Assembly (NCBI RefSeq): GCF_006345805.1
Contig: NW_021825867.1
Span: forward strand, 1 to 14,118
Direction: 5' to 3'
Origin: Octopus sinensis
Lineage: Eukaryota
DNA length: 14,118 nt
A program made the translations under genes and the position numbers. The notes beneath the pieces were generated by a model. That model searched no databases. It had not been told where the DNA came from and saw nothing but the letters and a program-made list of their open reading frames with translations. The first letter of the stretch is position 1, and each line of letters begins with the position of its first letter. Positions 731 through 13,603 of this stretch are shown in pieces.

Positions 731-800
731 ATTCTTTATTCTTTTACTTATTTCACTCATTTGACTGCGGCCATGCTGGAGCATCACCTTAATCGAGCAA
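731..800 (-). mobile_element. SINE 3' tail fragment (octopus-type tRNA-derived SINE)
   Basis: ttatttcactcatttgactgcggccatgctggagcatcacctt is homologous to 2476-2520 and, inverted, to 3590-3615. It is truncated abruptly where the transposase remnant begins. Confidence 0.8.
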
Positions 801-802
801 AG

Positions 803-1455
803 AACATGGTGAATCAACAGAAATGTCTTTATTTGGCTCTTGAAAATCCGAGAAAACTGCACGAAAGACCACTGCACAGCCCAAAAATGACGGCCTGGTG
901 TGCTGTTGGAAAAGCTGCTGTCATTGGTCCTTAATTTTTTGAGGACAATTATGTAAATGCTGTTACTGTGAACTCCGAGTGTTACATCGAGATAATAAAC
1001 AACTTCTTTGCGCCTGAATTACGACGAAAATGTATGCCTATTGGATGTGTGTGGTTTCAGCAGGATGGGCCGACAACCCACACTGCCAAAACATTAATGA
1101 ACGACTCAGGTTCCAGGTTTCCTGATTTGTCCATGTGTGATTATTTCTCGTGGGGAAACCTCAAGGCACGTGTGTATGCGTATAAGTTCCGTACATTGGA
1201 CGAATTGAAGGAAGCTATTCGCGTGGATGTCGCCCACGTTGATCAAGCAATGCTAGAGAGAGTGGAAGCCAACTTTCAAGAACGCCTTCAGAAATGCTTC
1301 AATAAAAACAGATACTACATGATGGATATGTTTTTCCCACTTGATTTTAAAAAATGCTATTTCAATACGAACACATTGGTGTCAATAAAATTCGTTTGCA
1401 GCTACAATTAATATCGTGATTTTTCAAAAACATCCGTCCTCTCTGACCAACCCTG
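803..1455 (+). mobile_element. Tc1/mariner DNA transposon remnant, 3' half (catalytic domain of a D,D,D-type transposase plus right TIR), pseudogenised
   Basis: Frame from ATG 806 reads MVNQQKCLYLALENPRKLHERPLHSPKMTAWCAVGKAAVIGP*FFED...VTVNSECY...WFQQDGPTTHTA...PDLSMCDYFSWGNLKARVY, matching Tc1/mariner motifs (VNxQN.RYW..ENP, LHSPK.TVWC, IGPYFFE, WFQQDG, PDL..CD.F.WG.LK). It has one in-frame TAA, and only 24 aa separate the 2nd and 3rd D, implying an internal deletion. Ends in TIR 1422-1455 (...caaccctg). Confidence 0.92.
1422..1455 (+). repeat. Terminal inverted repeat of the Tc1/mariner element (right end)
   Basis: Reverse complement cagggttggtcagagaggacggatgtttttgaaa matches the TIR at 4167-4200 at 28 of 34 positions. 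Confidence 0.85.
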
Positions 1456-2911: not shown

Positions 2912-2968
2912 ATGTATATATATATATATAGATATATATATATATATATATAATATATATATATATAT

Positions 2969-3000
<32 letters not shown>
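2912..3000. repeat. (TA)n microsatellite
   Basis: Directly visible. Confidence 0.95.
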
Positions 3001-3001
<1 letters not shown>

Positions 3002-3207
3002 TTAATCCAAACATGAAACACAAAGGAAACACAACAACGCTGGGAGGACGTGGAAACAAATATTGTATTATTGGACGCTCAGGAAGGAAGGAAGAAGGAG
3101 GGTCTAACGTTTCGAGCGGAGCTCTTCGTCGGAAACATAGGAGAAGGAGAGATACAGAGAGGGAAGACAGAGGAAAAAAAAATCGCCAACGGTACCCCGC
3201 GGTCACA
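3001..3207 (-). mobile_element. ~207 bp hammerhead-bearing element in (TA)n, Penelope-like pLTR/non-autonomous derivative (copy 1)
   Basis: Aligns end to end, inverted, with 13343-13550 (shared blocks such as gttaatccaaacatgaaa, gtattattggacgctcaggaaggaagg, acgtttcgagcggagctcttcgtc, aatcgccaac, cgcggtcaca). Flanked on both sides by TA arrays. Confidence 0.8.
3102..3136 (-). ncRNA. Minimal type I hammerhead ribozyme motif, core variant (CCGACGA)
   Basis: Minus strand: GUUU CCGACGA A GAGC ucc GCUC GAAA CG UU AGAC. Stem I GUUU/AGAC (one G-U pair), stem II GAGC/GCUC, palindromic ACGU at stem III; U4 is replaced by C. Confidence 0.6.
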
Positions 3208-3213
3208 TTTTGA

Positions 3214-3411
<198 letters not shown>

Positions 3412-12895: not shown

Positions 12896-13183
12896 ATGGA
12901 CAATGTGGACTTGGTTGAATCCTTCCAACACTTTCCTGACCTTCTTGGTAAAGAAATCTTCCTTGCTGCCGAACGCAATGAACAATTGGCTCAACCAGAT
13001 CCTACTGTTATCCAACGTCTTGAACTCTTTTCCAAAGCCTTCAGCACTGAATTCCTACAGAGTTTATATTTAAGTCGAGAACATCTGCTGGTGAACTATT
13101 TGTCTGATGATTTCCATCTGTTTGTTGGTGTGCAGTCCTTGAACCTCAGCCACTGTGGATTATCTGATGACCATGAAATTATA
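12896..13183 (+). pseudogene. LRRC42: Captured/retrocopied fragment of a leucine-rich repeat-containing protein 42-like coding sequence (96 open codons)
   Basis: MDNVDLVESFQHFPDLLGKEIFLAAERNEQLAQPDPTVIQRLELFSKAFSTEFLQSLYLSREHLLVNYLSDDFHLFVGVQSLNLSHCGLSDDHEII is colinear with human LRRC42 as I recall it (DNVDHIDSLIGFPEQIAEKLFSAAE...LQKFTEAYGSLVLCSLCL...LTCLDLSCCKLGDEHELL). There is no polypyrimidine/AG acceptor upstream or GT donor downstream; both ends run into TA tracts. Confidence 0.8.
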
Positions 13184-13230
13184 TATACATATATATATAT
13201 AATTTCATGGTCATCAGATAATCCACAGTG
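13151..13230. repeat. Perfect 37-bp inverted repeat (fold-back) with 6-nt loop
   Basis: 13151-13187 cactgtggattatctgatgaccatgaaattatatata is the exact reverse complement of 13194-13230; loop catata. Confidence 0.97.
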
Positions 13231-13284
13231 CCCCACCATGGCCGCAGCCTTCGGGCTAAAACATTTTTAAGGATTTAAGGATTT
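13228..13284 (+). mobile_element. SINE/LINE 3' tail with UUCG stem-loop and short tandem (taaggatt) end
   Basis: gtgccccaccatggccgcagccttcgggctaaaacatttttaaggatttaaggattt shares catggccgcag...aaac with the other SINE tails in this window. Confidence 0.65.
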
Positions 13285-13342
13285 ATATATACATACATGT
13301 ATATATATACATACATAATATATATATATATATATACATATC

Positions 13343-13550
13343 TGTGACCGCGTGTGTACTGTTGGCGATTTTTTTTCCTCCGTCTTCCCTTCTCTGGATC
13401 TTTCCTTTTCCTATGTTTCTGACGAAGAGCTCCGCTCGAAACGTAAAACCCTCCTTCTTCCCTTCCTTCCTGAGCGTCCAATAATACTATTTTTGTTCTA
13501 CGCCCTCGCGTTGTTGTGGTTTCTCTTTGTGTTTTCATGTTTGGATTAAC
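13343..13550 (+). mobile_element. ~207 bp hammerhead-bearing element in (TA)n (copy 2)
   Basis: Inverted homologue of 3001-3207 with the same two termini; ends ggattaac-(TA)n. Confidence 0.8.
13415..13449 (+). ncRNA. Minimal type I hammerhead ribozyme motif with intact core
   Basis: GUUU CUGACGA A GAGC ucc GCUC GAAA CG UA^ AAAC. Core CUGANGA 13419-13425, GAAA 13438-13441, GUA triplet 13443-13445, stem I GUUU/AAAC, stem II 4 bp, palindromic ACGU in place of a full stem III. Confidence 0.75.
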
Positions 13551-13603
13551 TATATATATACATATATATATCAGCAACAAAATTATCCAGAATTGATTAT
13601 TTG

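What the first reader, a model, noticed from the sequence alone, without database searches (positions are those of the whole stretch)
13343..13550. Discrete ~207 bp (TA)n-targeted mobile unit carrying a minimal hammerhead ribozyme, present twice
Seen: two inverted copies 10 kb apart (3001-3207 and 13343-13550) share both termini, lie within TA arrays, encode no recognisable protein, and conserve a central CUGACGA-A-GAGC/GCUC-GAAA-CGUA motif with 4-bp stem I. Established: Penelope-like retroelements carry minimal type I hammerheads with a palindromic stem III thought to work as dimers, and some clades insert in microsatellites. Inference: a non-autonomous ribozyme-bearing retroelement (solo pLTR or retrozyme-like) that may help explain the TA-rich landscape; predicted cleavage 3' of 13445. 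Whether this family is already described I cannot tell.
Basis: partly seen in the sequence, partly recalled or inferred. Interest (0 to 1): 0.75.

Follow-up and report, generated by a model that had tools for sequence, protein, structure and literature searches.

The report
Solo Penelope ends with minimal hammerhead
This 208-base repeat is the detached end piece of a known kind of jumping gene (a Penelope-like retrotransposon) and carries that group's usual stripped-down self-cutting RNA motif; it is ordinary in kind, though its sharp ends likely record how the element is copied, and most copies carry a change in the motif's catalytic core.

Summary
The two copies are real, but they are not a stand-alone ribozyme element. 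The unit is the pseudo-LTR (pLTR) of a ~5.3 kb Penelope-like retrotransposon (RT, CX4CX2C linker, C-terminal GIY-YIG; Neptune-type). It follows the ORF in 18 of 20 loci and precedes it in 16 of 30. At least 7,851 copies share an exact 30-nt hammerhead core. That U4C form is the genome majority (5,766 vs 2,085) and is not CpG decay (control 180). The 3' end abuts (TA)n (50 of 79 vs 74 of 2,370) exactly where the full element reads TTTATATA into its 5' UTR. 5' ends cluster at -9..+16 (26 of 30); none start at the predicted cut. Likely origin: internal priming behind the upstream pLTR of an uncleaved RNA, then run-off at the transcript start. It is not a retrozyme and is too small a fraction to explain the TA-rich landscape. 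This scan has already noted the same kind of solo end in other genomes. Cleavage and the start site are untested.

The parts
13343..13550 (+). Copy B: solo pLTR of a Neptune-type Penelope-like retrotransposon; begins 8 nt inside the usual 5' boundary
   Evidence: 96% identical to the ORF-attached copy L032; family structure
13415..13449 (+). Minimal type I hammerhead motif with canonical core: stem I GUUU/AAAC, CUGACGA, extra A, stem II GAGC-UCC-GCUC, GAAA, palindromic ACGU instead of stem III
   Evidence: Read from sequence; architecture as in PMC4209133; pair counts
13445..13446 (+). Predicted cleavage site (GUA|AAAC); untested, and not used as a copy boundary
   Evidence: Inferred from hammerhead numbering; 0 of 30 copies start here
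13469..13476 (+). CCTGAGCG motif kept across subfamilies and in the sister family; function unexplained (possible distal stem I or promoter element)
13551..13571 (+). 3' TA run; its start corresponds to the parent's TTTATATA, the likely priming junction with the (TA)n target
13319..13336 (.). TA array on the 5' side of copy B
3001..3215 (-). Copy A: solo pLTR of the same family, starting at the -8 boundary (ATTCAAAA leader)
3102..3136 (-). Minimal hammerhead motif of copy A with U4C (3131), H17=U and a G-U pair in stem I
2915..2999 (.). TA array at the 3' end of copy A
3223..3385 (.). TA array at the 5' end of copy A

Best explanation
[quoted passage not shown] Steps: (1, shown) The full element is pLTR - ~290 nt 5' UTR - ORF - 1-2 kb CA-rich spacer - pLTR, and its sequence continues past the pLTR with TTTATATA. 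(2, inferred) Transcription starts in the upstream pLTR about 8 nt before the unit. (3, inferred) The endonuclease nicks a (TA)n array and the nicked end pairs with UUUAUAUA in the RNA. Priming behind the downstream pLTR gives ORF-bearing copies. Priming behind the upstream pLTR gives a ~215 nt cDNA that runs off the RNA's 5' end and integrates as a solo. (4) Copy ends do not match the cut site (shown), so the template was likely uncleaved (inferred). The motif would cut only as a dimer, and these two copies, 10 kb apart on opposite strands, are likely inert. Odds: identity about 0.95, the route in steps 2-3 about 0.55.
For: Unit downstream of the GIY-YIG end in 18 of 20 loci chosen by ORF end/spacer. 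Unit ~270-340 nt upstream of the ORF start in 16 of 30 loci chosen by ORF start, 13 of the 16 followed by TTTATATA. Both pLTRs flank a near-full ORF in 6 of those 16 when refetched, one of the 6 uncertain. RT motifs DKGG, LPKIHK, YIDD, linker CSRSRCNTC and CIKCNLC..YVGQT are in the translations; 85 homologs of 656-1358 aa, most with RVT_1 and some with GIY-YIG. 5' ends at -9..+16 in 26 of 30 copies picked by a 3' pattern, 2 longer, 2 shorter, 0 at +104. Genome-wide, 2,877 copies reach -7 but only 636 extend 4 bases further. TA-rich 3' flank beyond the first 8 nt in 50 of 79 copies vs 74 of 2,370 background windows. Contigs of other runs leave the element right after TTTATATA (loose ends at 949). 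Published: internal RT initiation and insertion from unprocessed RNA in a Poseidon element (PMC11167929); PLE transcripts start in the upstream pLTR (PMC6765202).
Against: No transcription start was measured; only contigs were available. The RT and GIY-YIG Pfam scores of this family's own fragments are below the curated cut-offs, and two fragments had no hit. Most solos begin a few bases inside the -8 boundary, and AT/TG microhomology with the flank could itself concentrate breakpoints there. Priming by TA homology differs from the Poseidon result, where initiation is at a non-homologous site. The 30-copy samples come from one chromosome arm and required an exact 30-35-mer. Clade assignment rests on motifs, not a tree.
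Confidence: 0.8

Rival explanations
1. Solos are ordinary 5'-truncated insertions primed at the downstream pLTR. They stop at one spot because AAAATGTG is the first microhomology to TA/TG targets, or because RT stalls before the CA-rich spacer.
For: 5' flanks are often TA-rich (21 of 64 vs 84 of 2,370). The ~200 nt 3' of the boundary are pyrimidine-rich with no TA repeat. ORF-bearing copies are mostly 5'-truncated.
Against: Several copies join unrelated, non-TA sequence exactly at -8/-7 (L009, L018, L028, L226, L228). ORF-bearing L236 starts at the same point in its upstream pLTR. The drop from 2,877 to 636 occurs within 4 bases.
Confidence: 0.22
2. Solo units are a self-propagating non-autonomous family (retrozyme- or SINE-like): transcribed on their own, cut and circularised or read through into TA, and mobilised in trans by the parent's protein.
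For: Solos outnumber ORF-start copies by far (7,851 or more vs 185 first-look candidates and 41 exact junctions). One locus has three units in tandem separated by TA (L259) and one is head-to-tail (L028). PLE origin of animal retrozymes is argued in 10.64898/2026.07.22.740005.
Against: 9 of 90 loci have a second core within 1.5 kb, several on the opposite strand, and none forms an array. The C4, U4 and GUA variants all occur on ORF-linked copies. No copy starts at the cut site, as monomers of a cleaved circle would.
Confidence: 0.13
3. Solos arise after insertion by recombination between the two pLTRs of full-length copies, like solo LTRs.
For: A full-length copy starting at -8 would leave the same solo. 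Recombination or deletion was suggested for solo pLTRs in Adineta (PMC3846280).
Against: This needs over ten thousand full-length insertions, whereas surviving ORF copies are mostly 5'-truncated (1,299 first-look candidates for the ORF end vs 185 for the ORF start), and the repeats are only ~210 bp.
Confidence: 0.07

Closest known systems
Minimal hammerheads (min-HHR) in pLTRs of metazoan Penelope-like elements (Cervera and De la Pena 2014, PMC4209133; read parts 1-2 of 4)
   Same: Type I motif with 4-bp helix I, an unpaired base between A9 and G10.1, G10.1-C11.1, palindromic 15.2-16.2 and no helix III; thousands of mostly single genomic copies, few attached to full elements.
   Different: Helix II is 4 bp (7-8 in their Schistosoma motifs). 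The majority subfamilies carry U4C and a sister family A6U; the core variant named in the parts I read is U3-A8. One motif is nearly invariant across subfamilies only ~72-75% alike elsewhere.
Neptune clade of EN+ PLEs (Arkhipova 2006 as described in Craig et al. 2021, PMC8557442; read Introduction and passages)
   Same: RT, then CX2-5CxxC linker, then C-terminal GIY-YIG with CCHH; pLTRs in partial tandem with a hammerhead near the 3' end; microsatellite bias attributed to the linker.
   Different: A long (1-2 kb) CA-rich spacer and a ~290 nt 5' UTR separate the pLTR from the ORF. No tree with named references was built, so Nematis is not formally excluded.
Poseidon PAc of the green anole (Frangieh et al. 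2024, PMC11167929; read part 1 of 4 and passages)
   Same: Reverse transcription starts inside the RNA just past the pLTR; hammerhead mutants still insert; no RNA reads end at the cut site.
   Different: PAc starts at a site not homologous to the target and its ORF begins inside the hammerhead. Here the stop point is an element-encoded TTTATATA matching the (TA)n target, and the ORF starts ~290 nt later.
Animal non-LTR retrozymes (bioRxiv 10.64898/2026.07.22.740005; read part 1 of 5)
   Same: Short non-coding repeats with a type I hammerhead, related to pLTRs.
   Different: Defined by tandem units. Here copies are dispersed monomers collinear with the pLTR, bounded by pLTR ends rather than by cleavage sites.

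Membership tests
pLTR of an EN+ Penelope-like element | Same repeat at both ends of an RT + GIY-YIG ORF in direct orientation | tested here: met
   18 of 20 downstream, 16 of 30 upstream, both ends in 6 of 16, e.g. L259, L260
pLTR of an EN+ Penelope-like element | PLE-type RT motifs (DKG, LPKIHK, YIDD) and C-terminal GIY-YIG with CCHH | tested here: met
   Motifs in translations; Pfam RVT_1 and GIY-YIG hits below cut-off for this family; homologs 32-59% identical. LPKIHK as a PLE motif is recalled.
Neptune clade | CX2-5CxxC linker between RT and EN | tested here: met
   CSRSRCNTC; shared with Nematis according to PMC8557442
Neptune clade | RT phylogeny groups with named Neptune elements rather than Nematis | not tested
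   No named reference sequences were in hand; homologs were almost all unnamed
Naiad / Hydra clades | N-terminal EN (Naiad); CCHH absent and CxCX5C linker (Hydra) | tested here: not met
   EN is C-terminal, CCHH present, linker CX4CX2C
Minimal type I hammerhead (min-HHR) | CUGANGA / GAAA / UH core, extra base after A9, G10.1-C11.1, palindromic 15.2-16.2, 4-5 bp helix I | tested here: met
   All present in copy B. Copy A and 5,766 of 7,851 exact-core copies depart at U4
Minimal type I hammerhead (min-HHR) | Helices supported by compensatory change | tested here: inconclusive
   97% of cells paired; one compensatory pair (G-C to C-G, a single event between sister families); stem II invariant, partly by how rows were chosen
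Minimal type I hammerhead (min-HHR) | Self-cleavage as a dimer | not testable with these tools
   Needs a bench assay; contigs show no RNA ends
Non-LTR retrozyme | Tandem repeats with two or more consecutive hammerhead units | tested here: not met
   Window copies are monomers; no arrays among 90 loci; only isolated tandems (L028, L259)
Non-LTR retrozyme | Abundant circular RNA | not testable with these tools
   No raw RNA reads were offered

The most novel reading that the evidence does not exclude
The tens of thousands of solos are a genomic record of 'strong-stop'-like cDNAs: RT is primed by TA homology behind the upstream pLTR of an uncleaved RNA and runs off the cap. Whole subfamilies amplified with U4C (or A6U in the sister family) while the hammerhead fold stayed fixed, so in this clade the fold is kept for a non-catalytic role such as RT loading or promoter function, and cleavage is dispensable in vivo.
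Probability: 0.3. Interest if true: 0.55.

Novelty: new member of a known kind. Interest (0 to 1): 0.3.

Why it matters
As a class this is published: Penelope-like elements carry minimal hammerheads and litter animal genomes with single pLTRs. The value is mechanistic. [quoted passage not shown] This family offers natural U4 and C4 masters that both amplified, a sharp 5' boundary that is not the cut site, and a 3' boundary at an element-encoded TA motif. Together these make two open questions directly testable: is cleavage needed, and how do solo pLTRs and (TA)n targeting arise? It also suggests that some repeats annotated as unclassified SINEs in such genomes may be pLTRs (inference).

Tried and rejected
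Rfam: no hammerhead hit among the 150 of 152 window matches listed, nor among 3 matches on the unit. MFE folding does not give the hammerhead monomer: z -1.9 and -0.6 for the two cores, stem I probability 0 and stem II 0.2 in the whole unit, as expected without helix III; RNAalifold recovered only stem II. CpG decay as the source of the C4/U4 split: rejected, the mirror product CCAACGA has 180 copies vs 2,085. 'Core conserved above flanks' among individual copies: only marginal (0.93 vs 0.91, 0.96 vs 0.91, 0.89 vs 0.85 in three samples not chosen by the core), so copies decay after insertion and conservation is seen between subfamilies. First parent candidate: 20 long-ORF GIY-YIG loci proved to be a sister family with its own pLTR; the unit near L070 was an unrelated insertion. 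A distal stem I through CCTGAGCG: favoured in most subfamilies of this family (mean z about -2.6 to -3.9; -1.2 in one) but not in the sister family; left open. Pairing of that motif with stem II: probability 0.01. Splice acceptor as the 5' boundary: no shared AG across subfamilies (read). Expression: no RNA holder listed on record; runs guessed to be RNA hold the unit as contigs only, which says nothing on strand, start or cleavage. Literature: searches 'octopus, Neptune, Penelope', 'octopus, Penelope, hammerhead', 'solo pLTR, Penelope' and 'hammerhead, U4C, self-cleavage' showed no description of this family. Repbase, Dfam and paper supplements were not consulted and may hold it. The dimer-cleavage paper of Lunse et al. 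was not held and may already list these core variants.

Full report
Observation. The window holds two copies of the unit, B at 13343-13550 (+) and A at 3001-3207 (-), 89% alike over an alignment that includes flanks. Copy B contains a complete minimal type I hammerhead at 13415-13449: stem I GUUU/AAAC, CUGACGA, one extra A, stem II GAGC-UCC-GCUC, GAAA, and the palindrome ACGU where stem III would be, with the predicted cut after 13445. Copy A differs at U4 (CCGACGA), has U at position 17 and a G-U pair in stem I, and reaches 8 nt further at its 5' end. Rfam has no hit and the monomer does not fold as a hammerhead, which is expected for motifs that lack helix III (PMC4209133, parts 1-2 of 4).

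Copy number. The genome G000 (2.72 Gb; probably an octopus, a guess from size and repeat content, not tested) has 7,851 exact matches to the 30-nt core, reversed control 0: 5,766 with C4 and 2,085 with U4. The mirror CpG-decay product has 180 copies, so both are inherited subfamily states. Only 8 of 30 copies picked by a 3' pattern match the exact core (places), which suggests roughly 29,000 copies across related subfamilies, about 0.2% of the genome; this is a rough figure.

Parent element. Two of the 30 best copies shared ~1.9 kb of CA-rich upstream sequence, and one of them led into the end of a GIY-YIG frame. Of 20 loci taken from the 43 matches to that ORF end and spacer, 18 have the unit downstream in the same orientation, two of them partial. 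Of 30 loci matching the ORF start, 16 have the unit about 270-340 nt upstream, and 13 of the 16 continue with TTTATATA into a shared 5' UTR; 41 exact junctions exist genome-wide. Refetching those 16 gave 6 with a unit on both sides of a near-full ORF, about 5.3 kb apart in L259 and L260; one of the 6 may be an independent insertion. [quoted passage not shown] Pfam scores for these decayed fragments are below cut-off; 85 longer homologs were found, most annotated RVT_1. By the features in PMC8557442 (Introduction and passages) this is a C-terminal EN+ PLE of Neptune type, not Naiad or Hydra; Nematis was not excluded by a tree.

Ends. The 3' end is fixed and followed by TA-rich sequence beyond the first 8 nt in 50 of 79 copies (those of 90 loci left after removing duplicates and copies without a mapped 3' end) against 74 of 2,370 background windows; 5' flanks are TA-rich in 21 of 64. 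The break falls where the full element itself reads TTTATATA, also in contigs of other runs, so pairing of a nicked (TA)n target with this motif is the likely priming step (inference). In 30 copies chosen without regard to the core or the 5' end, 26 start at -9..+16, 2 extend into the spacer, 2 start at +63 and +70, and none at the cut site near +104. Genome-wide 2,877 copies reach -7 and 636 reach -11. In the ORF-attached copy nearest to B the boundary lies in TCATTC, which resembles an initiator (recalled consensus; other subfamilies read TCTTTC, so this is weak).

Mechanism. PLE transcripts start in the upstream pLTR (PMC6765202, passages), and a Poseidon protein starts reverse transcription inside unprocessed RNA, with hammerhead mutants still inserting (PMC11167929, part 1 and passages). 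Applied here: priming behind the downstream pLTR makes ORF-bearing copies; priming behind the upstream pLTR makes a ~215 nt cDNA that runs off the RNA start and becomes a solo. This explains both sharp ends, the large excess of solos and the absence of copies starting at the cut. The start site and the priming step are inferred, not shown. Rivals are a truncation hot spot, independent propagation of solos, and recombination between pLTRs.

The ribozyme. Among individual copies the core is hardly better kept than the flanks, so copies decay once inserted. Between subfamilies only 72-75% alike the core is the same (chosen by core; also L254 and L257, chosen by ORF). A sister family with thousands of candidates keeps stem II and swaps the outer stem I pair (CUUU/AAAG), but has U at position 6; this is one compensatory event. 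U4C lowers cleavage in vitro yet still supports a viroid in vivo, and an A6 change gives low activity (PMC3088659, passages). So selection on the masters keeps the fold while tolerating changes in the CUGA turn. Whether that means slow cleavage is enough or the fold has another job is open. In the window the two motifs are on opposite strands 10 kb apart and are likely inert.

Arrays of units, the defining mark of non-LTR retrozymes (10.64898/2026.07.22.740005, part 1 of 5), are absent among 90 loci, 9 of which have a second core within 1.5 kb; isolated tandems exist (L028, L259). Only 3 of the 13 merged TA arrays in the window touch a unit, so the family uses the TA landscape more than it explains it; local growth of arrays on insertion was not tested.

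Prior description. The class is published. My four searches showed no account of this family; an octopus repeat annotation lists Penelope families without mention of hammerheads in its main text (PMC13282606, part 1 and passages), and the giant squid paper only counts hammerhead hits (PMC6962438, passages). I did not see supplements, Repbase, Dfam or the Lunse et al. paper (cited second-hand). Earlier notes of this scan on other genomes describe the same kind of solo end, including a fixed 5' start and core changes; I read them after forming this view and they are not independent evidence.

Verdict. A real feature and a new member of a known kind. Interest 0.3, resting on what the ends and the core variants make testable.

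Noticed in passing
window 12896-13234 (+): A 94-codon open stretch with leucine-rich-repeat-like spacing sits between TA runs, with no evident splice sites, and its last ~36 nt are duplicated in inverted form across a TA run (13146-13181 / 13199-13234). It may be a retro-copied host mRNA piece. It resembles LRRC42 from memory only; Pfam had no hit, and the Atlas gave LRR clusters below 0.9.
   Followed up: partly
window ~790-1440 (+): Decayed Tc1/mariner-like transposase fragment (WFQQDG and DLSMCDYFSWG motifs, family recalled); no Pfam hit.
   Followed up: partly
L069-L088, e.g. L070, L087, L088: Sister Neptune-type family with 5,197 first-look candidates and open frames up to 829 aa; its pLTR hammerhead has CUGU(N)GA (A6U) and stem I CUUU/AAAG, and it is also followed by a short TTATATAT before its 5' UTR.
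   Followed up: partly
window 13469-13476 and all families: CCTGAGCG followed by TAATA, 15-25 nt past the predicted cut, is kept across both families better than its neighbours; role unknown.
   Followed up: partly
L259:6061-6816: Three units in tandem, ~275 bp apart and separated by TA runs, at the 3' end of a full-length element: a natural substrate for hammerhead dimers.
   Followed up: no
L033:8352-8541 (same place as L018) and L028: Units joined at the -8 boundary directly to an RT fragment or to the end of another unit, as a template jump from an RNA 5' end would produce.
   Followed up: no
5' boundary of the unit (window 3203-3208, minus strand): The boundary contains ATG-TGA, a start-stop pair; related subfamilies keep TTCANNATG.
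   Followed up: no
runs: The unit is held by runs of four coded organisms (A-D), so the family is shared among related species or labels.
   Followed up: no
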